From Nanobdellota archaeon (GTDB lineage Archaea > Nanobdellota > Nanobdellia > Pacearchaeales > GW2011-AR1), in NCBI GenBank assembly GCA_018817405.1, contig JAHITZ010000042.1, positions 1-63,048 on the forward strand: DNA of 63,048 nucleotides, given 5' to 3'. This document shows, piece after piece, positions 6,323 through 16,565 of this stretch. The notes beneath the pieces are model-generated. The model was given only the letters and a program-made list of their open reading frames with translations, had not been told where the DNA came from and did not search any database. Within the stretch, counting starts at the first letter, position 1, and each line of letters begins with the position of its first letter. Both the position numbers and the translations under genes were made by a program.

Positions 6323-7795
6323 TCAAGATAAGATTATAGGTCTTGTTTGCCTGTAAAATTTAATTCCTGCGTTGAGCTTTTTCTTTGACTCCGAGTAGAG
6401 AGTTAAAAGTTTTTCTCCTTTTTTTATCTTGTCATTTACATGCTTGTAAAGATATAACCCTGCTGCTTTGTCTGTCGGGCAACCAAGTATTCTGGCTAGA
6501 TGGTTAATTAACTTGTTATCTGTTGATTTTACTTTTCCTGAATGTTTTCCGAGGATATTGTGTTTAAACTTTGCAAGTTTTAATGTTTTTTTCTTTTTCC
6601 CCTGGGCAGAAATGATTTCTTCAAATTTTTTTAATGCTCTTCCAGAATCTAAAATTTTCTCTGCCATTTCTTTTCCTTTTCCTTTTTTTGCTTTTTTAGT
6701 CATTTCAAGAAGGTGTGATGCAAGAAGGATTGATTTTTTTTCTAAATCAAGGGGTCTTCCATGTTTTCTTTTCAAAATTTTGTAAACATCAATCATCTCT
6801 AAAACAGGACCAACTGCATTTCCAATTGGCTGAAAACCAGGAGTTAAAACAACTTTGAGATTTAATTTAAAATGATTAGAAATTTTTAGAAAATGTTGTT
6901 TTAGTTTTTTTGCTTGTGCAAAACTGACTTTTGCCCCTTTGCCGTATGGAACGTCCAGCAAAATGAATTTGCTTCCGGTTGCAATTTTTTTTGATAAAAT
7001 TGAAGCAATGAGCTGTGGTTCTGGGTCAAGGTTAAGCATTTTTTCTACTCTTATTAATTTGTCGTCTGCTGGAGCTAATCCGAGAGAGCCGCCCCATGCA
7101 AGGCAAGCATTGGTTTTGCGTACAACTTTTTGTAAATCATATACTGATAAAGAGATATTTGTTACAGCTTCCATGACGTCGGCTGTAGCGGCGGCAGTTG
7201 TTATTGCTCTTGATGAAGTTTTTGGTATTGTAATACCTGCTGCAGCGCATATTGCTACGACTAGGGGTGTTGTTCTATTCCCAGGAATTCCTCCTATTGA
7301 ATGTTTGTCTGCAATTTTCTTTTCTTTCCATTTTAGTATTTGTCCTGTATGTGCCATTGCCTCAGTTAAGTAGATTATTTCTTTAACTGACATTCCATTG
7401 TGATACACGCCCGTAACGAAATAAGCAATCTCAGCCTCGTTTAAAGCATTGTTTACAATATCTTCTATTATCACATGAATTTCTTTTTTGGATAATTCAA
7501 GATTATTTACTTTTTTGAGAATAAATCTCGTGCTTCTTGGTTCCAACGCAACTGAAATTTCTATTTTTTCCCCTTTTTTAATTTTAAAATTAGAGATTGC
7601 TTCTTCTGAGAGAGAAATCTCTTTTTCTGAGAGTAATTTTTTTATAATGTTAACAGAGAGGATTAGTTTTGTGCCTTTGTGAGATATCTCTATCCTGCTT
7701 CCCTCAATGATATTCAATTTTTTAGCAAATTTTCCGTTGATAAATGCTATTGGCCGACCAGCTTCAAGATGCATTGGCTTGAATTTTAGTTTCAT
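6323..7795 (-). CDS. deoA: AMP phosphorylase (thymidine phosphorylase family)
   Basis: DKHSIGGIPGNRTT, PKTSSRAIT, WGGSLGLAPADD and IGNAVGPVLE motifs; archaeal N-terminal barrel domain. Confidence 0.93.
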   Translation of the reverse strand: MKLKFKPMHLEAGRPIAFINGKFAKKLNIIEGSRIEISHKGTKLILSVNIIKKLLSEKEISLSEEAISNFKIKKGEKIEISVALEPRSTRFILKKVNNLELSKKEIHVIIEDIVNNALNEAEIAYFVTGVYHNGMSVKEIIYLTEAMAHTGQILKWKEKKIADKHSIGGIPGNRTTPLVVAICAAAGITIPKTSSRAITTAAATADVMEAVTNISLSVYDLQKVVRKTNACLAWGGSLGLAPADDKLIRVEKMLNLDPEPQLIASILSKKIATGSKFILLDVPYGKGAKVSFAQAKKLKQHFLKISNHFKLNLKVVLTPGFQPIGNAVGPVLEMIDVYKILKRKHGRPLDLEKKSILLASHLLEMTKKAKKGKGKEMAEKILDSGRALKKFEEIISAQGKKKKTLKLAKFKHNILGKHSGKVKSTDNKLINHLARILGCPTDKAAGLYLYKHVNDKIKKGEKLLTLYSESKKKLNAGIKFYRQTRPIILS

Positions 7796-7844
7796 TTTTT
7801 TGTGGATTTGAAAGGAGGGTTGGCTTAAAAAACGTTTTCTTTTT

Positions 7845-7947
7845 GTTAAATCAAGTTTCCGATTGAACAGGGATTTGAGAATGAATACATGATTACATCT
7901 TTAATATTATCCAACCCCTCTAATTATTAATAATAAATCTGTCCTGT
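7845..7947. repeat. Dispersed intergenic repeat, copy 1 of 3
   Basis: Invariant cores GATTTGAGAATGAATACA and ATTATTAATAATAAATCT are shared with 8834-8936 and 32449-32556. Confidence 0.85.
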
Positions 7948-8030
7948 GGATTCACCGAATCTCTCCTACATCCAACTAAAAGGAGTATATTCTACTTCTA
8001 TAAATTTATTACAACAATGATTATAAACTT

Positions 8031-8609
8031 TTGAAGTTATTGTTTTGTATGAGAGTAAGAGAGACAAATAAAAAAGATATTGAAGAGAAGTTTTTGGAAA
8101 TGAGTGAGTATATGAGTATGGATTACCTTGCTAGTTGCCTAAAGAATCATCTTGACTTTGATACGAGAAAGTTTGTTTTGGTCAAACTGTCTGGGCTTTT
8201 TGAAGCAAAGGCGATGTTTTTAGATGCCGCTAAAGCAATGAAATCTGCTGCAGAGATTAACACAAATAAGCAAAATAAGATTAATGATTTTACTAAATCT
8301 GGAGAGCTTTTTATCCGTGGAGGAGATTACGACAGAGCAGATATTTGCATGAAAAAAGCAACCTCGCTTGCTGAGGGAAAACAAACCGAAGAAGTAAAGG
8401 GAATGATAAAAGAGTTTTATAAAACTCACGCAAGAAGTTGTATTGAAAGAAACAAAAGAAAACAAGCAATTGCAATTTATGAAAAACTTGTAACTTTTGA
8501 TCTTGTTGAAGAAGAGAAAAAAGAATTTGAAAAAAAACTCCTTGAACTGTATGAAGGTGTTGGTGACTTAGACAGGTACAAGAAGTTGCAGAGACGGATT
8601 TCTAATTAA
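8031..8609 (+). CDS. Hypothetical alpha-helical (TPR/SNAP-like) protein (probable start ATG 8049)
   Basis: Helical-repeat pattern such as SGELFIRGGDYDRADICMKKA and QAIAIYEKL. Confidence 0.75.
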   Translation: MKLLFCMRVRETNKKDIEEKFLEMSEYMSMDYLASCLKNHLDFDTRKFVLVKLSGLFEAKAMFLDAAKAMKSAAEINTNKQNKINDFTKSGELFIRGGDYDRADICMKKATSLAEGKQTEEVKGMIKEFYKTHARSCIERNKRKQAIAIYEKLVTFDLVEEEKKEFEKKLLELYEGVGDLDRYKKLQRRISN

Positions 8610-8618
8610 AAATAAATA

Positions 8619-8634
8619 AACCTCCGAAGAGGTT
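8619..8634 (-). terminator. Hairpin terminator with a cUUCGg loop
   Basis: Minus strand AACCTC-TTCG-GAGGTT followed by a T-rich tract, just after the small ORF 8643-8753 and between convergent genes. Confidence 0.6.
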
Positions 8635-8642
8635 AAAAAAGA

Positions 8643-8753
8643 TTAATCGCCTATAGAAGAATCAAGCCCGTCAATAAGGTCTTCAACTTCAAAGTCGAAT
8701 TCTTCTTCAGGCATTGCCTCAGGGTTTTTCTCTTCTAACACCTTTTTTACCAT
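8643..8753 (-). CDS. Small acidic protein, 36 aa (MVKKVLEEKNPEAMPEEEFDFEVEDLIDGLDSSIGD)
   Basis: Not in the ORF track; GAGG RBS just upstream, TTTAAA box further upstream, UUCG terminator downstream. Confidence 0.6.
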   Translation of the reverse strand: MVKKVLEEKNPEAMPEEEFDFEVEDLIDGLDSSIGD

Positions 8754-8833
8754 TTTCCTCTTTTTCTTTTTTCTGCATCTTAAAGTATTTAAAGTTTGCC
8801 TCTTGATAATTAAACGCACGTTTTGAGAAGACT

Positions 8834-8936
8834 GTTAAGTCAATTTCTCAATCGGACACTGGATTTGAGAATGAATACAAGATTGCAGCTTCAACATTAT
8901 CCACGTCCCTAATTATTAATAATAAATCTGTCTTGT
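8834..8936. repeat. Dispersed intergenic repeat, copy 2 of 3
   Basis: Same invariant cores as copies 1 and 3; similarity to copy 3 extends ~45 nt further right. Confidence 0.85.
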
Positions 8937-9160
8937 TGTTTATTAAGTGTATCATAGTTTCCAGTTTAAATGTTTGTTTCACAAAAACAGCTTTGTCCTG
9001 AGTAGAGTGATTTCACTAAATTTGGGGTTGGGCAGGGGGTGGAAGGCGGGTTTTCGATGACAGTCGAACTTAGTAGGAATACGAAATCACCAAAGTCTTA
9101 TTATTCCGGACAACTCCACAAAAACACAACCTTTAAAAAACCCCTGAAATTAAATGTGGT

Positions 9161-9298
9161 ATGGCGCAGTATAAATGTTTTGAATGTGAGAAGTCAATCA
9201 GCAGCAAGGTCTTAGAAAAGAGATTTGTCTGCCCTCATTGCGGTTCTAGAATATTTTACAAGCCAAGGAATAAGATAGTTAAATTGAAAGCAATCTGA
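9161..9298 (+). CDS. rpoP: DNA-directed RNA polymerase subunit P (Rpo12)
   Basis: Translated by hand: MAQYKCFECEK...FVCPHCGSRIFYKPRNKIVKLKAI; C4 zinc ribbon; conserved synteny with prefoldin beta. Confidence 0.93.
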   Translation: MAQYKCFECEKSISSKVLEKRFVCPHCGSRIFYKPRNKIVKLKAI

Positions 9299-9300
9299 TT

Positions 9301-9639
9301 ATGAATCCTGATTTAGAGATTAATAAAAAAATAGAAGAATTGCAGGTTCTTGAGAGTCATCTTCAGAGGATTTTAGCTCAAAAGCAAAGTGTGCAGATAG
9401 AACTTAATGAAATTGATAATGCTCTTGAGGAATTAAAAAATTCTGATGAAGAGGCTTACAAAATTGTCTCAGGGTTTATGATAAAGTCTACAAAGGATAA
9501 ATTAGGAAATGAATTAAAAGAGAAAAAGAAATTGTTTGAAATGAGAATGGAGTCTGTAGAAAAGCAAGAAGAAATAATTGAGAAGAATGCGGAAAAATTA
9601 AGGGAAGAGGTTAAATCTGTTGTTTCTAAGGGTAAATAA
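9301..9639 (+). CDS. pfdB: Prefoldin beta subunit
   Basis: Coiled coil-hairpin (ALEEL...AYKIVSGFMIK)-coiled coil; follows rpoP. Confidence 0.9.
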   Translation: MNPDLEINKKIEELQVLESHLQRILAQKQSVQIELNEIDNALEELKNSDEEAYKIVSGFMIKSTKDKLGNELKEKKKLFEMRMESVEKQEEIIEKNAEKLREEVKSVVSKGK

Positions 9640-9826
9640 GGAAAAATAAGGTCTATGAAAACCGAATGCATTTGATATACTGCAGGAGATAATTATTATA
9701 GAACTATCTTCTTTGAAGCTGTTGTTTGGTATAATCTTTCTGATAAAACAGGTTGGCTGTTTTTCTTATACTACAAGTCGTCTGCCATACAATAATATTT
9801 ATATAGTCTGGTAGCGGAAAAGATTT

Positions 9827-10204
9827 ATGGCTTTTAATTTCAAAGGAATGTTTGGAAAGGGTGAAGAGGAAGAATATATTGAGCTTGACCTTGATTCTGT
9901 TGCACCTCAAGAAAATAAGGTGATTGTTAAGCCGTTCGTTTTAAGAGATTATGACGGAACGGAAGAAATTTTAAATTCTTTAAGAACAGGTTATACAATT
10001 GCAATCATTGATATCAAACCATTAAAAACAAAAGATATAATTGAACTGAAAAGGGCCATTTCAAAGATAAAAAAGACAGTTGATGCTTTAGAAGGAACAA
10101 TTGCAGGTTTTGGAGATAGTATAATTCTTGCAACGCCACAGTTTGCGCAGGTCCATAAGCCGACTGCTCCGCAGAAGAAGAGTAAGCTGGATTATTTTGG
10201 TTGA
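9827..10204 (+). CDS. sepF: Cell division protein SepF (archaeal DUF552 type)
   Basis: N-terminal amphipathic helix, EYIELD, LRTGYTIAIIDI, LKRAISKIK, GTIAGFG and ILATP motifs. Confidence 0.88.
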   Translation: MAFNFKGMFGKGEEEEYIELDLDSVAPQENKVIVKPFVLRDYDGTEEILNSLRTGYTIAIIDIKPLKTKDIIELKRAISKIKKTVDALEGTIAGFGDSIILATPQFAQVHKPTAPQKKSKLDYFG

Positions 10205-10340
10205 TTTTTGGAGTGAATAGTTATTTGGTTTTTTTGTATATTCTTCTCTAGAATGGTAAAACAGATAGTACATTGTTAACTTAGCGGTTGGTAAAACAAA
10301 CTACAAAAATATTTAAACACAAAACTCATATTTTTATCAT

Positions 10341-10417
10341 GGTTACGGCACAGAGGGATTTCTGCTAACTTTAACATCCTAAATTAAGTTAGTTCTAACC
10401 TCTCTGTGCCGATTTCC
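10341..10417 (+). ncRNA. Putative hairpin small RNA inside the transposon left end
   Basis: 12-bp stem CGGCACAGAGGG/CTCTCTGTGCCG with inner stem CTAACTTTAA/TTAAGTTAG; TTTAAA box ~25 nt upstream. Confidence 0.5.
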
Positions 10418-10573
10418 GAGTCACCCAAACCTTTAAATATATAATAGATATATGTTTTCTCAAGGATGTTAAGGTTGGAATAGCAACTACAAGGTCGTTG
10501 TTGCTTGTAGCTTGACAAACTTATGTTTACCAAAGAGGTGAACATTAAATTAAATTGCAGGAGGAAAAAATAA

Positions 10574-11515
10574 ATGCAAAAACAAATAGAAGTGAAGACA
10601 GAGCAAGGCATTAATCTAAGCCAAAGAATAATTATGCCGACACATAGAGAGCTGTTGAAGTCAAAGCAGTATAATCTGCCGATAGTTTCTCTAAGTCCGT
10701 TTGCTGTTTTTGTTAAGAAAATGGCTTCAACGCAGAGACATAATTGGACAGGCAACGTTAATGTTGATAAGCAAGCGATACAAGAGGTATGCAAGGATTT
10801 TGGTTCATACGATTTCTTAATAAATTTTCAGTTTAAGAAACAAATTGACTTTAATCAAAGTGAGATGGATTACTTAGAGCAAGTTCAACAAATCCCAGAA
10901 CTGTCGTATATCTGCATGAATGAAAAAAGTGCAAACCAAACGGCACAGGAATTTGAACAACAACTTAGTGGCTGGAAATTACGAAACACTGGAAAGTTCA
11001 TCGTTCCAGTTATAGAATCTTCAACCAATGAAAAAGTTAAGAAAGTCGCAATAATGAAACGAGAAGGTATAAGGAGATGTGCCATTATTTTCCGAAGTTT
11101 TATAACCGAAGATGACAGAGCAGATTTAAGCCGAATATTAGCCAACCTAAGAATAGCCAATATCTATTCAATGGTCTTCGGAGTTAATCCGAAAAAATGG
11201 TCTAAGACTGCGGCTTCAATGTATCTTCCGCCATTACAATTTGAAGCAAACGCCATATCATCTTGGATTGCGTGGGGCGGGGCAAAAGTTCCATTAGAGC
11301 TTTTATGTTCCGACTGGATTTATAGATTGTCCGATTCTGCCGACGCTGGTCTTGCGAGTTACAATGGTTCTGGTAGAAAGAATTTTCTTACTGGGAATTC
11401 AAGCGTAGCTTTCAATACAGCATTAAGCCAGATTGACACAGTAAACCAAGCGAGCTTACTAGCACAAAACTTTGTCTTACTGCCCGAAGTTCAATTTAAA
11501 CGCCTCTTCAACTGA
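10574..11515 (+). CDS. Hypothetical 313-aa cargo protein, possibly a TIM-barrel (TGT-like/beta-protein-like) fold
   Basis: Long ORF with a strong GGAGG RBS; alternating beta/alpha pattern (LINFQF, YICMNE, FIVPVIE, AIIF, SMVFGV); the fold is inferred only. Confidence 0.8.
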   Translation: MQKQIEVKTEQGINLSQRIIMPTHRELLKSKQYNLPIVSLSPFAVFVKKMASTQRHNWTGNVNVDKQAIQEVCKDFGSYDFLINFQFKKQIDFNQSEMDYLEQVQQIPELSYICMNEKSANQTAQEFEQQLSGWKLRNTGKFIVPVIESSTNEKVKKVAIMKREGIRRCAIIFRSFITEDDRADLSRILANLRIANIYSMVFGVNPKKWSKTAASMYLPPLQFEANAISSWIAWGGAKVPLELLCSDWIYRLSDSADAGLASYNGSGRKNFLTGNSSVAFNTALSQIDTVNQASLLAQNFVLLPEVQFKRLFN

Positions 11516-11713
11516 TTGGTTTTTGTCTGGGTAATAATCCCAAACATTAATCCATAATTTGTTGAGGTATTTTTTTATTTTATTTTTCTCTTTCTTTTTT
11601 ATTTCATTATTTTTAAATTTTCTTTCCAGTTTTGCGTCTGCTAAGTCTAATGCAAAAACTCTTTTTTCCCATTCAAAATATTTATCGTCGTTTTTTCTTA
11701 TTTCCATTTTCAA
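11477..11713 (-). CDS. Small basic hypothetical protein
   Basis: 78-aa ORF overlapping the RHH gene, apparently in the same minus-strand unit. Confidence 0.5.
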   Translation of the reverse strand: MKMEIRKNDDKYFEWEKRVFALDLADAKLERKFKNNEIKKKEKNKIKKYLNKLWINVWDYYPDKNQSVEEAFKLNFGQ

Positions 11714-11861
11714 TTAGCTTTAGTTTATTGGAGAATAGCCAAGCGTGGACAATCTCTTGGAGTAGTTTGGATTCTTTCATGGCGTATTTTTCCAATGCTT
11801 TATTGAACAAATCAAAATCATCTTGTTCCAATGTAAACTTTATCTGTCTATCCGATGGCAT
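11682..11861 (-). CDS. Ribbon-helix-helix-like DNA-binding protein, 59 aa
   Basis: Translated by hand: MPSDRQIKFTLEQDDFDLFNKALEKYAMKESKLLQEIVHAWLF...; beta-strand plus two helices typical of CopG/RHH. Confidence 0.65.
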   Translation of the reverse strand: MPSDRQIKFTLEQDDFDLFNKALEKYAMKESKLLQEIVHAWLFSNKLKLIENGNKKKRR

Positions 11862-11869
11862 TATTTAAG

Positions 11870-11921
11870 GTAGCTACTTTAATATATAAAAGTATCTACT
11901 TTAATTAATAGTAGTAGCTAC
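11870..11921. promoter_or_regulatory. Three palindromic operators with 22-bp spacing
   Basis: GTAGCTAC at 11870, GTATCTAC at 11892 and GTAGCTAC at 11914, between the divergent RHH and DUF2080 genes. Confidence 0.65.
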
Positions 11922-11964
11922 GAAGTATAGAAAGGTTTAAATATAAGATATATCTATTATATAC

Positions 11965-12132
11965 ATGGAAGAAAAAGTTAAGGAAGCGAAGAAAATTAAA
12001 GACGAATTAGATAAACTCGGAATTGAAGTTATCTTAGAAATAGAAGTAACTGCTTTCGGAACATCGGCTCACATCCCAATATCAAAAAAATTTATCGGGA
12101 GGAAAGTGTCAATAATCGTGCCAAAAGAATAA
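11965..12132 (+). CDS. DUF2080-family transposon-associated protein, 55 aa
   Basis: Translated by hand: ...EIEVTAFGTSAHIPISKKFIGRKVSIIV; matches the DUF2080 pattern; directly upstream of the transposase. Confidence 0.85.
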   Translation: MEEKVKEAKKIKDELDKLGIEVILEIEVTAFGTSAHIPISKKFIGRKVSIIVPKE

Positions 12133-12147
12133 TCATATTAAATTAGA

Positions 12148-12165
12148 GGGGAGCCGAAGCTCCCC
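12148..12165. terminator. GC hairpin between DUF2080 and the transposase
   Basis: GGGGAGC-CGAA-GCTCCCC; reads as a cUUCGg loop on the minus strand. Confidence 0.5.
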
Positions 12166-12189
12166 GTATTCACCCAACGCTTAAATCAG

Positions 12190-13134
12190 ATGAAATACAA
12201 AAATCATAACCAAACCAAGTATAAAAAAGTATTGTGTCCTAATTGTAATTCTGCCGAAACAATCAAATGGTGCAAGAGAAAAACGCAGAACCGAGGAGAA
12301 ATACAGCGATACAAATGCAAGTCGTGTAACTCGTGTTTTACGCCTGACGATGGATTTTTCAGAATGAGGAACACGCCACAAAAGGTGAGCCAGAGCATAG
12401 ACTTATTTTACAGAGGAGTAAGCACAAGAAAAGTCCAAGAGCATTTAGCTATCTTCCATCCCCACAACGCTTCTAATGTTTCAATTTACAAATGGGTTGT
12501 TAAGTATTCTAAGATGATAAGCAAGTTTACGAACAAGCTAAAAGTTACAGTAAGCGGAGAAGTTCAAGTTGACGAAATGGAATGCCACAGAAGAATAAGC
12601 CACAAGGCAAAAAGAGGAATAGATAAAAACTGGTTCATTGACAGCATAGACCCAGAGACGAAGTTTTTAATTTCTGGCGAGTATTCAAAGACAAGAGGAA
12701 AGCGAGACATTAAAGCAGTTGTTTCAAAGATAAAAGAAAGGACAGAAAACCAAATACAGATGGTTACGACAGATGGGCTTTTGACGTATCCAAAGGTGAT
12801 TAAGTCTGTTTGGGGTTACAATCATAAGTTAAAGAGATGTAATGTTTTTCATAACAAAGTTAACGCCTCAAAAGGCGAGGGCTTTAACCATCCAATAGAA
12901 AGACTGCACAACAGCGTAAGAGCGAGAACAAAAGTTATGCGTGGATTTCACGGCTCCATTAATTCCGCTAATGCTATTTTGAAGGGCTACGAGATTTATT
13001 ACAACTTCATAACTAAACATCAAGCGATTAAGAAATGTCCTTATGAGTTGGCTATTCCTGAATTGGCTTTGGCTCTGGAAAACGAGAAAAACCGATGGCT
13101 CGGACTAATTAAACTAAGCAACATAAACAATTAA
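12190..13134 (+). CDS. DDE transposase, IS1/IS6-like
   Basis: Zn ribbon CPNC...YKCKSC, HTH (GVSTRKVQEHL...SIYKWV), catalytic VDE / TTDG / PIERLH. Confidence 0.92.
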   Translation: MKYKNHNQTKYKKVLCPNCNSAETIKWCKRKTQNRGEIQRYKCKSCNSCFTPDDGFFRMRNTPQKVSQSIDLFYRGVSTRKVQEHLAIFHPHNASNVSIYKWVVKYSKMISKFTNKLKVTVSGEVQVDEMECHRRISHKAKRGIDKNWFIDSIDPETKFLISGEYSKTRGKRDIKAVVSKIKERTENQIQMVTTDGLLTYPKVIKSVWGYNHKLKRCNVFHNKVNASKGEGFNHPIERLHNSVRARTKVMRGFHGSINSANAILKGYEIYYNFITKHQAIKKCPYELAIPELALALENEKNRWLGLIKLSNINN

Positions 13135-13137
13135 AAA

Positions 13138-14385
13138 ATGAAGAAACACTATAATCTTATGATAGAAAAAGAGCAAGAGAGTTTCATAAATTGGGATTTC
13201 AAAGAAGCGGAAACTAAACAGTTCACTCACGGCTATCATACTTATCCAGCCATGATGATACCCCAGATAGCAAGAAGGTTAATTTATCTCTATGGTAAGA
13301 ACGCTAAAACCCTCTTAGACCCGTTCTGTGGCTCTGGCACGTCTATAGTTGAAGCGTCTTTAACTCCGCAAATTAAAGAGGCGTTCGGCTTTGACCTAAA
13401 CCCCCTCGCTGTTCTGATTGCGAAAGTTAAAACGACTCCATTGGACACGGCGGAGTTAGGGAGGATATTAGATAAGTTATTAGTCGCTCAAGGACACAAC
13501 GGCGTTCCAGATTTCAAGAATATAGAATTTTGGTTTAAGCCACAAGTAACCGAAAGGTTGGCAACGTTGAAAACTGCAATAAACAAAATCAAGAACAAAG
13601 ATGTTAAAGACTTCTTCTTGGTTGCGTTTTCCGAGACTGTTAGGAACGTATCAAACACAAGGAATGGCGAGTTTAAACTTTACAGGATGGCAGAGAAAAG
13701 TTTAGAGAAGCATAACCCATGGGTCTTTAAAGAATTTGAGAAGATAGTATTAAAGAATATTCATGGAATGAAAGAATACAACAAAGCAAGACACAAGACA
13801 AAGACTACTGCCACACTGGGAAGCAGTATGTTAGACTTGCCGTTGAAACCGCAGAGCATTAATTTAATCGTAACTTCTCCACCTTACGGTGACAGCAGAA
13901 CAACTGTGGCTTATGGGCAGTTTTCAAGGTTGGCTTTACAATGGTTAGACTATGAAGATGTGGCAAGTTTAGACAATCGGCTTATGGGTGGAAAAGCCAG
14001 CAAAGAATTAGAAGTTAAAATAAACTCCCCAACCCTCAAAAGCATTATAAAAGAAATTGCAGAGAAAGACGAGAAGAGGGCAAGAGAAGTTTTAAGTTTC
14101 TACGATGACTTTGACCAATGCGTTGACCAGCTAAACAAAGCTATGGCTAAAGACGGCTATGTTTGTTTTGTTGTTGGGAACAGAACCGTTAAAGGAGTGA
14201 ATATCCCAACGGACAAAATAATGGCGGAGATGTTTAAAGCAAAAGCAGACTACGAGCATATTACAACTCATTTACGTAATATTCCAAACAAAAGAATGCC
14301 CTCATTAAACTCTCCAACAAACAAGGTAGGCGAGAAAGTAACGACAATGTGCAACGAGTTTATTTTTGTTCTTCGGAAGAATTAA
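13138..14385 (+). CDS. Type II DNA methyltransferase, N4-cytosine type (MvaI-like)
   Basis: HGYHTYPAMMIP, motif I LDPFCGSGT and motif IV TSPPY; convergent with an MvaI/BcnI nuclease. Confidence 0.9.
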   Translation: MKKHYNLMIEKEQESFINWDFKEAETKQFTHGYHTYPAMMIPQIARRLIYLYGKNAKTLLDPFCGSGTSIVEASLTPQIKEAFGFDLNPLAVLIAKVKTTPLDTAELGRILDKLLVAQGHNGVPDFKNIEFWFKPQVTERLATLKTAINKIKNKDVKDFFLVAFSETVRNVSNTRNGEFKLYRMAEKSLEKHNPWVFKEFEKIVLKNIHGMKEYNKARHKTKTTATLGSSMLDLPLKPQSINLIVTSPPYGDSRTTVAYGQFSRLALQWLDYEDVASLDNRLMGGKASKELEVKINSPTLKSIIKEIAEKDEKRAREVLSFYDDFDQCVDQLNKAMAKDGYVCFVVGNRTVKGVNIPTDKIMAEMFKAKADYEHITTHLRNIPNKRMPSLNSPTNKVGEKVTTMCNEFIFVLRKN

Positions 14386-15152
14386 TCTAATTCAGTTATA
14401 GAAAACACCTTGCTTAAGTTATTTTTGTTTATCCTAAAACCTGAGCCGTGGTCGTGATTTTTCCCGATTAGCTTAGGGTTTTTAGTTTTCCTATAAACTC
14501 CCAGTCTAAAGTCATATTTTATTATTCCTTGCTTTGTAAAGTCCAAAAACTTATCAAATGTTAAACCAGACAATAGAACCGCTTTGTTAAACCTAAACAT
14601 CTCTTTTCCATTTTGTTTTTTACGCTCTGCACTGATAAAGATAATATACTTGCATTTATGTTCAACTATTTCTCTTAATTTTTCAAACGGATAAAAAGCA
14701 GTTATAGAAGCGTCTATTGTATCTTGTTCAAGATTTTTAATTTTGATAAATATTTTTTCTTCTGCTTTGCTAATGTCCAAAAGGAAACCAAACTTTCCCT
14801 TAGATGTGTTAAATTTGTCTGCGGAAAAGGTTGTATGTAAAATCTTTGAGTCTCTAAATTCTTCATCAAAATATCCAAAAGTTTCCCGTATAATGCTATT
14901 AACTCCTCTTGGGTTTGGAGATTTTGTAAATAACGTAACCATCGCCTGAGACAATTCTCTTGCAGACTTTAACTCAATCACTCCCTTATAGTCCGCGGAA
15001 TCTTTATTATTTTCTATAACTCCTAACAAATCTTCTGCTGTCTTTCCTATCCCTGTATCGTGAAACCTTCTTGAATCAATAAAGCCCATCTGTTTCAACT
15101 TTTCAAATTCTATTTTGAACTCTTCTAATACCTGCTTTTCAGAGGATTTCAT
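14382..15152 (-). CDS. MvaI/BcnI-family type II restriction endonuclease
   Basis: TGIGKTAEDLLGVIENN...AD...IELKS, TLFTKSP, FGY and HDHGSGFRI signatures. Confidence 0.9.
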   Translation of the reverse strand: MKSSEKQVLEEFKIEFEKLKQMGFIDSRRFHDTGIGKTAEDLLGVIENNKDSADYKGVIELKSARELSQAMVTLFTKSPNPRGVNSIIRETFGYFDEEFRDSKILHTTFSADKFNTSKGKFGFLLDISKAEEKIFIKIKNLEQDTIDASITAFYPFEKLREIVEHKCKYIIFISAERKKQNGKEMFRFNKAVLLSGLTFDKFLDFTKQGIIKYDFRLGVYRKTKNPKLIGKNHDHGSGFRINKNNLSKVFSITELD

Positions 15153-15255
15153 AAAAAACAGAGATAAGACAACCCTTTAAACTTTTCCACCAACCGTTAA
15201 GTTAACAATGTAAACAGATAGTGAAGTTTAAATACCCAAATTTTCTAAAAAAACC

Positions 15256-15730
15256 ATGAGAGAAAGTATAGATCGAGAAATAAATACCTGCCGTGATGTC
15301 TTAGAACAAACGTTAAAAAGAGTAGGTGATCTCCATTCAGCTTGGGAAATGTTTTCCCCTAATAACAACAATGTTCTGCTTCGTTGTTTAAAATATAGCC
15401 TTACTAGAGGTGAAAGGGACTATGCCGAAGCGCATTACATTGACGTAGAAAGACCATCAGGCCCGGCTCAGGATGTCACTGAGGTTCTTACAATTCTAAA
15501 CTCAGCAGCCAATAACTTTTACGATGCTGGGAGCAATAGCAGCCCAATTAATGGTCCCAGACACTGCAGCCCTCGCTTTCAGAAGCGCAGCAGACTGTTA
15601 CAGATCAATGCAAGATTGGGTAGAAAATCCACAAACCTGGATGCTTAAAAGGGAACATCAAATGATAGATCTAAGTGTTGCATGTGGAAGAGAATCAGTA
15701 CAAATCGCAGAAATCCAAAACAGAAATTAA
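15256..15730 (+). pseudogene. Frameshifted helical hypothetical gene
   Basis: ORF 15256..15648 (...AANNFYDAG) appears to continue in ORF 15524..15730 (AIAAQL...FRSAADCY); shift near 15530. Confidence 0.5.
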
Positions 15731-15864
15731 AATTAAATCTATTATCTTCTTTATTAACAACTATCTCCTTGTTTATTTCCCTAATTTTCTTGGTAAAAAT
15801 CCTGAGTTTTTTATGGATGGGTCGTTTACCCGAAACTAAAAACATCCCTTATAATAATAGGACA

Positions 15865-16233
15865 CTATTTCTTAGCCAAGGAAAAAACAGTCTTCAAGGC
15901 AACAATAATTGTTGCAGGGACAAACATAACCAATAAAGCGCCTAGGACTGAAGAAACTATTCTTCCTATTGCAATGCCTCTGATTGCAGCGTCTAACACA
16001 AGACCTTGAATTCCTGCAAAACTAACTATTACTAAAGATACAGAAGCAAGAAGAAAAGTTTGGACTTCTTTTTCTGAGACGAAATAGCCTGCAACTAAGC
16101 CAAGCAGTGCGAGAATACCTAAGAGAAGGGGATTGGTTTGGTTTCTTCCGAAGATTCCTACCGAAACTGCAAGAATCATTCCAATTAAAAAGGCCCAAGC
16201 CCCAATCAGATTCTCTTGGTATTTTATTGGCAT
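15865..16233 (-). CDS. Hypothetical 4-TM membrane protein
   Basis: Four hydrophobic segments; IGAWAFLIG and FVPATIIVALK patterns. Confidence 0.85.
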   Translation of the reverse strand: MPIKYQENLIGAWAFLIGMILAVSVGIFGRNQTNPLLLGILALLGLVAGYFVSEKEVQTFLLASVSLVIVSFAGIQGLVLDAAIRGIAIGRIVSSVLGALLVMFVPATIIVALKTVFSLAKK

Positions 16234-16565
16234 TTTATTTACTTTTTTATTGTATAAAAGAAGGTTCTTGCTTTATTAAATATTTCGTTACTGCCAATTT
16301 CGGTTTAACGTAATATAAACAGCTCAATTTATTGCCCACCCTCTACCCCCACCAAACAATTATATAATCTTGATACAAAAAAATCCTGCGAGTGATTAGC
16401 GAGCAGATGACTGTTGTTTTGATAGGTGTAGGTATGTTACATCAGACGTTTACTTTACAGTCAGTGTGGTTTAGCTATTTTTCTGAATTTTTTAGCAAAA
16501 AAATGTTTTCCTTCCAGCACCGAAATATTTAAATAGGCGTTTTGTAACTAAAAAATTACAACAAT

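What the first reader, a model, noticed from the sequence alone, without database searches (positions are those of the whole stretch)
10260..15221. Intact 4.9-kb DPANN cargo transposon carrying a complete restriction-modification system
Seen: 24-bp TIRs (23/24 identical, with TACATTG ends rather than the GG ends usual for IS1/IS6) and a perfect 9-bp TSD AACAGATAG. The TSD reads as 11 bp if the ends are drawn one base inside. A single Zn-ribbon/HTH/DDE transposase sits in the middle rather than in flanking IS copies. Passengers on both sides are a hairpin RNA, a 313-aa unknown, RHH and DUF2080 regulators, an m4C-type MTase and an MvaI/BcnI nuclease. Inference: this is a recently inserted unit transposon of a poorly described family that moves defence/addiction cargo in DPANN archaea.
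Basis: partly seen in the sequence, partly recalled or inferred. Interest (0 to 1): 0.88.

Follow-up and report, generated by a model that had tools for sequence, protein, structure and literature searches.

The report
Cargo transposon carrying restriction-modification genes
A 4.9-kb jumping gene in a tiny DPANN archaeon carries its own transposase plus a complete restriction-modification system, and it belongs to a large family of transposons that move many kinds of genes between these archaea and that I found described in no paper.

Summary
Window 10269-15212 is bounded by 24-nt inverted repeats (23/24) and an exact 9-bp duplication, AACAGATAG. It holds one Zn-ribbon/DDE transposase, a DUF2080 gene, an N4/N6-type DNA methyltransferase and an MvaI-like nuclease.

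It is not a one-off. The same genome has a second element (contig C49, 3225 bp, perfect 24-nt ends, TSD GTGAAATGG) with a different methyltransferase. It also has a solo end beside a type IIG R-M gene.

In 80 related DPANN loci, 37 elements of 1.9-8.3 kb carry the same ends (T-R-Y-ATTG...). With the two own-genome copies, 38 of 39 elements have an exact 9-bp duplication. None is a bare IS.

DNA methyltransferases and nucleases are the commonest cargo. Lipid-synthesis, redox, surface-protein and regulator genes also ride.

In 16 of 20 congeners the two genes that flank the element lie 53-2056 bp apart, so the site is empty there.

IS6 is the nearest family (70 bits against a cut-off of 125; 21-26% identity to named IS6). 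Ends, 9-bp duplication, size and cargo all differ from IS6.

I read it as a new, habitually cargo-bearing relative of IS6. No paper describing it was found, and ISfinder could not be queried.

The parts
10260..10268 (.). Left copy of the 9-bp target-site duplication AACAGATAG
   Evidence: Own pairs identical in 38 of 38 elements, cross pairs 0 of 1406.
10269..10292 (+). Left terminal inverted repeat TACATTGTTAACTTAGCGGTTGGT
   Evidence: Family consensus from 76 ends, with ATTG at positions 4-7 in 76 of 76.
10345..10412 (+). Stable hairpin (possible small RNA) between the left end and the promoter-like box of the 313-aa gene
   Evidence: dG -32.1 kcal/mol, z -5.4, 0 of 200 shuffles as good. No Rfam match. 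Conserved in the G006 element, where arm changes keep pairing through G-U. Single copy in the own genome.
10574..11515 (+). 313-aa passenger of unknown function, predicted TIM-barrel fold
   Evidence: No Pfam or NCBIfam family. 18 homologues, none named. AF2 pLDDT 88.6. Only generic TIM-barrel matches, TM 0.35-0.48. 90% identical copy in the G006 element.
11477..11713 (-). 78-aa ORF, uncertain gene
   Evidence: No family. A homologous ORF lies in the G006 element (cluster 11).
11682..11861 (-). 59-aa small protein, RHH-like by sequence pattern (inferred)
   Evidence: Only a weak DUF6694 match, E 0.0069. Homologues in the G006 and G019 elements (cluster 7).
11965..12132 (+). DUF2080 (AbrB-like) transposase-associated small protein, 58 nt upstream of the transposase on the same strand
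   Evidence: PF09853 6e-7. NF033496 1.7e-8, above its cut-off.
12148..12165 (.). G+C-rich stem-loop between DUF2080 and the transposase
   Evidence: 7 pairs, 6 of them G-C. Function not tested.
12190..13134 (+). 314-aa transposase: CxxC...CxxC Zn-ribbon, helical region, RNase-H-fold DDE core
   Evidence: Invariant C16 C19 C43 C46 D128 D195 E237 R244 in 37 sequences. AF2 pLDDT 80.8. Foldseek best matches ISCth4, TnsB, RSV integrase and Mu.
13138..14385 (+). 415-aa DNA methyltransferase starting 3 nt after the transposase stop; FCGSG and TSPPY motifs
   Evidence: N6_N4_Mtase 5e-12. Motifs read from the translation. 86% identical copy in the G003 element.
14382..15152 (-). 256-aa MvaI-like type II restriction endonuclease, convergent with the methyltransferase
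   Evidence: PF15515 1.8e-48 over the whole profile. R.MvaI 2oa9 4.2e-38 and R.BcnI 5.4e-4.
15189..15212 (-). Right terminal inverted repeat (one mismatch to the left one)
15213..15221 (.). Right copy of the target-site duplication AACAGATAG

Best explanation
This is an intact unit transposon, probably autonomous, of a DPANN-wide family distantly related to IS6.

Proposed mechanism:
- The single 314-aa transposase has a Zn-ribbon, an HTH-like helical region and a DDE core (D128, D195, E237, with R244 seven residues after E).
- It is inferred to bind the 24-nt terminal repeats. Their conserved core is T-R-Y-ATTG, then T13 and G18-G19.
- It is inferred to cut at the T1 ends and join them to a target opened with a 9-nt stagger. 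That gives the 9-bp duplication.
- A small DNA-binding protein encoded just upstream (here DUF2080/AbrB-like, plus a divergent RHH-like gene) is inferred to regulate transposase expression or help end binding.
- Everything else between the ends is cargo.

The cargo here:
- A type II R-M pair: an m4C-type methyltransferase likely co-transcribed with the transposase, and a convergent MvaI-like nuclease.
- A left module of hairpin plus TIM-barrel protein.
- The R-M pair is inferred to give the host defence and to stabilise the element by post-segregational killing.

Shown: the ends, the duplication, the gene content, the family, and absence from congeners. Inferred: catalysis, regulation, the addiction role, and whether movement is cut-and-paste or IS6-like replicative cointegration (open, about even odds).
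For: Ends and duplication:
- TIR and TSD are present and far beyond chance.
- Control with the right flank reversed: 5 of 80 loci gave any hit, 1 of them with a 9-bp repeat, all with 16-18 of 24 matching in A+T-rich sequence. The real data gave 41 of 80 loci with a hit, 37 of them with family ends.

Other copies in the same genome:
- Second element at C49:2103-5327, with 24/24 TIR, TSD GTGAAATGG, a transposase 87% identical and a different N6_N4 methyltransferase.
- Solo end on C38, abutting a 987-aa Eco57I/MmeI-like R-M fusion.

Related loci:
- Of the 40 loci with at least 3 kb on both sides of the transposase, 29 are bounded by family ends plus an exact 9-bp TSD. Of the other 40, 8 are bounded.
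- Sizes are 1890-8342 bp. All hold extra genes.

Transposase:
- Invariant Cys4 and D, D, E, R in 37 sequences.
- RNase-H DDE fold.
- IS6 matches all 37 sequences and has the best E-value, 9.5e-31.
- The closest annotated plasmid hits are IS6-family transposases, including ISCpe7, at 21-26% identity over 85-88% of the protein.

Cargo, from 107 ORFs of 95 aa or more: N6_N4_Mtase 14, N6_Mtase 4, D12 3, C-5 2, Eco57I 2, MmeI 2, RE_MjaI 2, MvaI_BcnI 2.

Site occupancy:
- In 16 of 20 congeners sepF and the 122-aa membrane-protein gene sit 53-2056 bp apart on one contig.
- In 6 genomes both flanks align in one locus 71-552 bp apart.
- A contig of another study's run (X2) bridges the left junction, 9880-10298, with 0 differences.

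Mosaic structure:
- The left 2.8 kb is 84% identical to the G006 element.
- The transposase-methyltransferase block is 85% identical to the G003 element.
- These two relatives sit at other sites with other TSDs.
Against: - No nucleotide-exact empty site was found. The intergenic target is not conserved at 70-79% flank identity, and two metagenome scans returned nothing.
- Only one copy of this exact element is in the assembly, and nothing shows that it moves today.
- The transposase is below every curated IS-family cut-off: IS6 70.1 against 125, IS1 35.6 against 100. Family placement is therefore by nearest neighbour.
- 11 of the 40 well-flanked related loci showed no bounded element.
- One related contig (L084) has family ends but no duplication.
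- The genome is a metagenome bin, 82% complete.
- The roles of DUF2080, the RHH-like gene, the hairpin and the 313-aa protein are untested.
Confidence: 0.85

Rival explanations
1. An ordinary IS6- or IS1-family insertion sequence of about 1.3 kb that merely sits next to an unrelated R-M system. On this reading the outer repeats are fortuitous.
For: IS6 and IS1 are the best profile matches. NCBI names relatives 'IS1/IS6 family transposase'.
Against: - No closer inverted repeat bounds the transposase alone.
- The 24-nt ends enclose the cargo in 39 elements, with exact 9-bp duplications in 38.
- The end sequence is conserved across the family.
- IS6 is defined by 8-bp repeats, about 800 bp and 14-bp IRs, with one passenger-bearing member (passages of PMC7986276).
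Confidence: 0.03
2. A fossil: a once-mobile transposon that is now fixed and inactive. Its R-M genes are kept by the host as defence genes.
For: - Single copy of this exact element.
- Decayed relatives exist. G018:C22 is 2231 bp with only a transposase fragment, and G008:C25 (613 bp) and G015:C8 (1393 bp) have no exact duplication.
- Stops interrupt some homologues.
Against: - All ORFs are intact, the TIR is 23/24 and the TSD is perfect.
- The element is absent from 16 of 20 congeners at this site.
- Flank contigs of two other studies' runs stop fitting the window exactly at 10270 and 15212, while element pieces lie on other contigs. This is a hint only.
Confidence: 0.1
3. A compound (pseudo-compound) transposon or an integrase-borne island, rather than a unit transposon.
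For: IS6 relatives typically mobilise cargo as pseudo-compound transposons (passages of PMC7986276).
Against: There is one transposase gene and no flanking IS copies. No integrase or recombinase family was found in any ORF. The short TIRs lie directly at the duplication.
Confidence: 0.01

Closest known systems
IS6 (IS26) family, especially the long Zn-finger clade with ISCpe7-like members
   Same: Nearest by profile and BLAST: NF033587 at 2e-19 over the whole model, and 21-26% identity to annotated IS6/ISCpe7 transposases. HTH plus DDE with a basic residue 7 after E. Some IS6 clades have an N-terminal zinc finger (PMC7986276, passages).
   Different: - The score is below the curated cut-off (70 against 125).
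- Ends start T-R-Y-ATTG.
- The duplication is 9 bp, not 8 bp.
- Size is 1.9-8.3 kb, against about 0.8 kb (up to 1.76 kb).
- Every bounded element carries passengers, whereas the review lists a single IS6 member with one passenger, ISDsp3.
- Cargo lies inside one unit, not between two IS copies.
IS1 family, and the shared IS1/IS1595 Zn-ribbon
   Same: An N-terminal CxxC...CxxC ribbon matches NF050000 in 34 of 37 family members. IS1 is recalled to make 8-9-bp duplications (recollection).
   Different: The IS1 profile scores 35.6 bits against a cut-off of 100. There is no InsA/InsB frameshift. The ends differ from IS1's, which are recalled as GGnnnTG.
IS1595-family passenger-bearing IS ('tIS'; Siguier et al. 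2009, recalled, seen only as a reference in PMC2853133)
   Same: Concept: a single-transposase IS-like unit with a Zn-ribbon/DDE enzyme and passenger genes inside the ends.
   Different: The IS1595 profile matches only 5 of 37 members, best 2.2e-6. IS1595 is recalled to make 8-bp duplications and to have other ends. Here cargo is the rule, not the exception.
Transposon-like R-M units of bacteria (Furuta, Abe & Kobayashi 2010, PMC2853133; passages read)
   Same: R-M genes enclosed by inverted repeats and a short target duplication. One Neisseria unit also holds a transposase-like gene.
   Different: Those are isolated cases with 8-bp duplications and 26-65-bp repeats, mostly without a transposase. 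Here there is a coherent archaeal family with its own transposase and conserved ends.
DUF2080 'transposase-associated protein' of methanogens
   Same: The window's 55-aa protein passes the DUF2080 cut-offs. The family also rings in Methanocaldococcus jannaschii, where an IS6-type IS is recalled.
   Different: Only 4 of the 39 bounded elements examined have a DUF2080-type gene: the window's, L072, and L077 and L117 (cluster 9). Others have a Zn-ribbon (16), another AbrB-like protein (8) or an RHH (5) in that slot.

Membership tests
IS6 family | Transposase reaches the curated IS6 profile cut-off | tested here: not met
   NF033587 scores 70.1 bits against a cut-off of 125. All 37 relatives match IS6, which has the best E-value of any family (9.5e-31), but no score above the cut-off was shown.
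IS6 family | DDE triad with K/R after E, plus an HTH | tested here: met
   Invariant D128, D195, E237 and R244. Helices at 63-114 precede an RNase-H-like core.
IS6 family | 8-bp target duplication | tested here: not met
   9 bp in 38 of 38 elements. The 8-bp rule is from PMC7986276.
IS6 family | About 0.7-0.9 kb (at most 1.76 kb), with a single ORF filling the element | tested here: not met
   1890-8342 bp with 1 to about 8 extra genes.
IS6 family | Short, about 14-bp IRs of the family consensus | tested here: not met
   24-nt ends with consensus T-R-Y-ATTGTTA...TTA..GG. The 14-bp figure is from the review. The GG start of the IS6 consensus is recalled.
IS6 family | Cointegrate-forming (replicative) transposition | not testable with these tools
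   Needs mating-out or in vitro assays.
IS1 family | Transposase reaches the IS1 profile cut-off | tested here: not met
   35.6 bits against 100.
IS1 family | InsA-type N-terminal Zn-ribbon | tested here: inconclusive
   Zn_ribbon_InsA scores 16.4 against 26.1. NF050000 scores 23.2 against 28 in the window protein, but 34 of 37 relatives match it, best 6.8e-9.
Type II restriction-modification system (MvaI/BcnI type) | Nuclease of the MvaI/BcnI family, full length | tested here: met
   PF15515 at 165.9 bits over profile positions 3-227 of 227. R.MvaI 134.6 bits over residues 9-247, with a D...E-x-K stretch aligned. Calling that stretch the catalytic motif is recollection.
Type II restriction-modification system (MvaI/BcnI type) | Adjacent DNA methyltransferase with AdoMet and catalytic motifs | tested here: met
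   N6_N4_Mtase 46.7 bits against 26.7. FCGSG and TSPPY are read in the translation. The m4C assignment from SPPY is recalled knowledge, not tested.
Type II restriction-modification system (MvaI/BcnI type) | Recognition sequence and activity | not testable with these tools
   Needs expression and cleavage or methylation assays. The recognition sequence is not predicted by any search.
Unit transposon / passenger-bearing IS (tIS) | One transposase, TIRs at the outer limits, TSD outside the TIRs, cargo inside | tested here: met
   and the family data.
Unit transposon / passenger-bearing IS (tIS) | Empty site in relatives | tested here: inconclusive
   Empty at synteny level in 16 of 20 congeners. 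No nucleotide-exact empty site was found.

The most novel reading that the evidence does not exclude
These elements are a distinct transposon family of Nanoarchaeia-class DPANN archaea that exists only in cargo-bearing form. It would serve as a main vehicle of gene flow in these reduced genomes. The cargo would include R-M systems, often fused transcriptionally to the transposase gene, so that DNA methylation could be part of the element's own life cycle. It would also include metabolic genes the hosts are thought to lack, for example a CDP-archaeol synthase plus CDP-alcohol phosphatidyltransferase pair in L120. The interchangeable small DNA-binding gene upstream of the transposase would be a family-specific regulatory slot.
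Probability: 0.3. Interest if true: 0.8.

Novelty: new variant of a known kind. Interest (0 to 1): 0.66.

Why it matters
DPANN archaea have tiny genomes, mostly cannot be grown alone and have no genetic tools. How they gain genes is an open question.

A defined transposon with known ends, a fixed 9-bp duplication and a compact transposase gives three things:
- a concrete, countable vehicle for gene transfer in this group, covering defence, lipid, redox and surface genes;
- an explanation for how R-M systems spread in these archaea; a 2026 survey reports R-M as under-represented in DPANN (PMC12988326, passages read);
- a candidate chassis for transposon mutagenesis or gene delivery in DPANN-host co-cultures.

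For transposon classification, it is a clade next to IS6 in which carrying passengers is the norm. That blurs the line between IS and transposon.

Tried and rejected
- Exact empty site. Aligning the window's flanks to 8 loci of 7 congeners gave conserved genes but an unalignable intergenic target.
- Metagenome scan with the 33-nt left flank: 0 hits. Scan with the 30-nt left end: 0 hits.
- Reads: only Logan contigs were available.
  - No joint across 10270-15212 was listed.
  - Flank contigs of X4 and X5 end their fit at 10270 and 15212 and run on for 23-37 unlike letters that the output did not show. I cannot say whether that is the empty allele.
  - Parts without cover are not used as evidence.
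- No RNA holder was listed.
- Rfam: nothing in 10000-15500 at E up to 1.
- tRNA scan of 7500-16500: none.
- The bacterial promoter/terminator scan was at shuffle level and does not suit archaea.
- PDB sequence search with the transposase: only a chance 15-bit hit.
- 313-aa protein: no family. The protein atlas gave unnamed archaeal clusters and a sub-threshold (0.83) viral cluster in which 15% of members carry TGT, a lead only. The fold search gave generic TIM barrels, so no function is assigned.
- A second end for the C38 solo repeat was not found at up to 7 edits.
- Literature searches:
  - 'DUF2080' + 'transposase': 0 papers.
  - 'ISMhu11': 0 papers.
  - DPANN + transposon + restriction-modification: 21 papers, 15 listed, none on such elements by title or abstract. 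I read passages of PMC12988326.
  - Pacearchaeota/Woesearchaeota + transposase: 4 papers, and the one checked was irrelevant.
  - I also read passages of PMC6563490.
  - Supplements were not opened. ISfinder and TnCentral cannot be queried here, so 'undescribed' rests on these searches only.
- Rejected ideas: a compound transposon (one transposase only), an integrase island (no recombinase) and an 11-bp duplication (family data give 9).
- Assembly-graph hint. Three related contigs are the element plus flanks about as long as the assembler's k-mer on each side (L080 and L092 54 nt each side, L110 140/141 nt), with matching TSDs. That could mean insertion polymorphism. L084 has 55-nt flanks without a TSD, so I do not count this as evidence.

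Full report
**1. Observation**

- A 24-nt inverted repeat lies at 10269-10292 and 15189-15212, with 23 of 24 positions matching.
- The pattern occurs only at these two places in 63 kb, against 0.00 expected from 100 shuffles.
- AACAGATAG lies immediately outside both arms, at 10260-10268 and 15213-15221.
- The alternative 11-bp reading exists because the base outside each end happens to match.

ORFs and families:

| Coordinates | Product | Support |
|---|---|---|
| 10574-11515 | 313 aa | no family |
| 11682-11861 (-) | 59 aa | no convincing family |
| 11965-12132 | DUF2080 protein | above both curated cut-offs |
| 12190-13134 | 314-aa transposase | see section 4 |
| 13138-14385 | N6_N4-type methyltransferase | starts 3 nt after the transposase stop |
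| 14382-15152 (-) | MvaI/BcnI-family nuclease | 1.8e-48; 4.2e-38 to R.MvaI |

The hairpin at 10345-10412 is real. It folds at -32.1 kcal/mol with z -5.4 and matches no Rfam family.

**2. More copies in the same genome**

The transposase has three further homologues in the 1.07-Mb assembly, at 87%, 61% and 28% identity.
- The 87% copy on contig C49 lies in a 3225-bp element. Its ends are a perfect 24-nt repeat, TACATTGTTAAGTTAAAGGGACTT, and its duplication is an exact 9-bp GTGAAATGG.
- The C49 element carries a different methyltransferase (N6_N4_Mtase 1.2e-56), an AbrB/MazE-like small protein and a 185-aa unknown.
- A solo end with one mismatch on contig C38 abuts a 987-aa Eco57I/MmeI-like type IIG R-M fusion.

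**3. The family**

Size and naming:
- Homologues number 1448 at E up to 0.001 among 2279 candidates.
- The few that are named are called 'IS1/IS6 family transposase' or 'DDE-type integrase' of Pacearchaeota or Nanoarchaeota.
- A scan of species-representative genomes returned 80 loci (108 confirmed, best 80 kept). Nearly all are titled Pace-, Woese- or Nanoarchaeota.

Bounded elements:
- A script looked for an inverted repeat flanking the transposase plus a flanking direct repeat. It found hits in 41 of the 80 loci.
- Four hits were A+T-rich with 8-bp repeats and unrelated ends, and I dropped them: L099, L134, L145 and L147.
- The other 37 share one end sequence and a 9-bp duplication. L073 is ambiguous between 8 and 10 bp.
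- The control with the right flank reversed gave 5 of 80 weak hits, 1 of them with a 9-bp repeat.
- Detection was 29 of 40 where at least 3 kb flanked the gene on both sides, and 8 of 40 otherwise.

Ends and duplications:
- With the two own-genome elements, 38 of 38 have identical 9-mers on both sides. Cross-pairings give 0 of 1406.
- The consensus of 76 ends is T-[G/A]-[C/T]-ATTG-T-T-A-[A/C]-[G/C]-T-T-A-[A/G]-[C/A]-G-G.
- ATTG, T13 and G18 are invariant.

Size and distribution:
- Sizes run from 1890 to 8342 bp, and no bounded element lacks extra genes.
- In an even sample of the phylum, 34 of 400 high-quality genomes have a homologue at E up to 1e-50. All are in the window's class, usually with 1-3 copies.
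- Within the genus, 11 of 20 other genomes have a homologue at E up to 1e-30.

Derivatives and a sister clade:
- Derivatives with a truncated transposase or none exist. G018:C22 is 2231 bp with an exact TSD and only a transposase fragment. A 613-bp and a 1393-bp pair of ends lack an exact TSD.
- A sister clade with about 30% identical transposases has related ends, TGAGCTGTAAAGTTAACG, and is also 2.5-3.1 kb.

**4. The transposase**

- In 37 aligned sequences C16, C19, C43, C46, D128, D195, E237 and R244 are invariant.
- The AF2 model (pLDDT 80.8) has a small beta ribbon, a helical region and an RNase-H-like core.
- Foldseek ranks ISCth4 (IS256 family), TnsB, RSV integrase, Mu and IstA first.
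- By profile the nearest family is IS6, at 70.1 bits over the whole 202-position model against a cut-off of 125. IS256 (37.1 bits) and IS1 (35.6 bits) follow. IS6 matches all 37 relatives and has the best E-value among the families.
- The closest annotated proteins on plasmids are IS6-family transposases, including ISCpe7, at 21-26% identity over 85-88% of the length.
- The IS6 review gives the family definition: about 800 bp, 14-bp IRs, 8-bp repeats, transposases of 213-254 aa with longer Zn-finger clades, and a single member with a passenger gene (PMC7986276, passages).
- The present elements meet the catalytic signature. They fail on score, ends, duplication length, size and content.

**5. 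Cargo**

Pfam on 107 cargo ORFs of 95 aa or more from the 37 elements (rows may overlap):

| Family | ORFs |
|---|---|
| N6_N4_Mtase | 14 |
| N6_Mtase | 4 |
| D12 | 3 |
| C-5 | 2 |
| Eco57I | 2 |
| MmeI | 2 |
| RE_MjaI | 2 |
| MvaI_BcnI | 2 |

- A motif-IV search marks 18 of 37 elements. One of these, L085, had no Pfam family.
- Two more elements carry C-5 methyltransferases.
- In 12 clustered cases, including C49, a related N6_N4 methyltransferase recurs, often directly after the transposase.

Cargo that is not R-M:

| Locus | Cargo |
|---|---|
| L120 | CDP-archaeol synthase plus CDP-alcohol phosphatidyltransferase |
| L141 | ADP-ribosylglycohydrolase |
| L126 | dehydrogenase, radical-SAM enzyme, methyltransferase and kinase-like genes |
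| L094 | flavoprotein/aldolase, thioredoxin-reductase-like and SAM-methyltransferase genes |
| L116 | laminin-G, collagen-repeat and PRC proteins |
| L125 | SDH-type protease |
| L133 | TrmB regulator |
| L083 | HTH_3 regulator |
| L104 | Exo_endo_phos nuclease |

The gene directly upstream of the transposase is a small DNA-binding-type protein of changing kind: a Zn-ribbon (16 elements), AbrB-like proteins (5 + 3), DUF2080 (4) or RHH-like proteins (3 + 2). I read this as a core regulatory slot.

**6. Insertion at this site**

- In 16 of 20 congeners the sepF homologue and the 122-aa membrane-protein gene lie on one contig, 53-2056 bp apart (coordinates).
- In the window the same two points are 5645 bp apart, which is 692 bp without the element.
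- Alignment of 8 loci confirms this for 6 genomes. The target itself is not conserved, so no exact empty site was seen.
- A contig from another study's run bridges the left junction without a difference. Pieces of the element occur at 0 differences in four runs of three other studies.
- The element's G+C (0.359) is close to the genome's (0.373).

**7. Mosaic structure**

- The left 2.8 kb (end, hairpin, 313-aa gene, small genes and most of the transposase) is 84% identical to the G006 element. That element then carries another methyltransferase and a 421-aa unknown.
- The transposase-methyltransferase block is 85% identical to the G003 element. Its nuclease is only 35% identical and its left arm differs.
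- Ends can be hybrid: in G019 one end is of the GGTTGGT type and the other of the GGGACTT type.
- The modules are therefore exchanged by recombination between elements.

**8. Verdict**

- The element works like a classical DDE unit transposon. It is nearest to IS6 but does not meet that family's definition.
- I found no description of it in the papers searched.

Noticed in passing
G000 contig C49:2103-5327 (L002:652-3876): A second complete family element in the same genome. It is 3225 bp with perfect 24-nt ends and TSD GTGAAATGG. It carries a transposase 87% identical, an N6_N4 methyltransferase, an AbrB/MazE-like protein and a 185-aa unknown that may be its nuclease.
   Followed up: yes
G000 contig C38:4546-4569 (L153): A solo family end (TATATTG variant) directly upstream of a 987-aa Eco57I/MmeI-like type IIG R-M gene. 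No second end and no transposase were found on the 9.4-kb contig.
   Followed up: partly
L120:7667-10191: A 2.5-kb family element in a Pacearchaeota genome. Its only cargo is a CDP-alcohol phosphatidyltransferase and a CarS-like CDP-archaeol synthase, which are lipid-synthesis genes on a transposon in a lineage thought to depend on hosts for lipids. Its TSD, ATATAATAA, is A+T-only, so the boundary deserves a second look.
   Followed up: partly
window 10427-10456 and 11931-11963: Two archaeal promoter-like boxes (AAACCTTTAAATATA and AAAGGTTTAAATATA) lie upstream of the 313-aa gene and of DUF2080-transposase. They share a 19-nt stretch in inverted orientation, 95% complementary (D1 and I6). This may be a common operator.
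   Followed up: no
window 12148-12165: A G+C-rich 7-bp stem-loop (GGGGAGC...GCTCCCC) lies between the DUF2080 stop and the transposase start in an A+T-rich element. It may attenuate read-through.
   Followed up: no
window 15256-15648: A 130-aa ORF right of the element has no family. It is not matched at the DNA level in congeners, where sepF is followed almost directly by the membrane-protein gene. It may be a lineage-specific gene or the remnant of an earlier insertion.
   Followed up: partly
G017:C78:2374-2392 (L162): In a congener, a family end sits a few bases from the edge of the sepF match (2017-2368), on the side opposite to the window's insertion. The sepF neighbourhood may be hit repeatedly. 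The contig ends 0.8 kb further on.
   Followed up: partly
L024:76-3201 and L026:1185-3732: A sister clade of transposases, about 30% identical and also present on own contig C23, is bounded by related ends (TGAGCTGTAAAGTTAACG) in 2.5-3.1-kb units. The cargo habit may be older than the family studied here.
   Followed up: partly
L080, L092, L110 (whole contigs): Three assembled contigs consist of the element plus flanks about as long as the assembler's k-mer on each side (54/54, 54/54 and 140/141 nt), with matching TSDs. This is the shape expected for the 'occupied' branch of an occupied/empty bubble. L084 has the same shape without a TSD.
   Followed up: partly
window 8833-9145 and 9692-9776: Short stretches left of sepF recur at 75-89% identity on at least ten other contigs of the genome. 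ARAGORN, run over window 7500-16500, finds no tRNA there. Their nature is unknown.
   Followed up: partly
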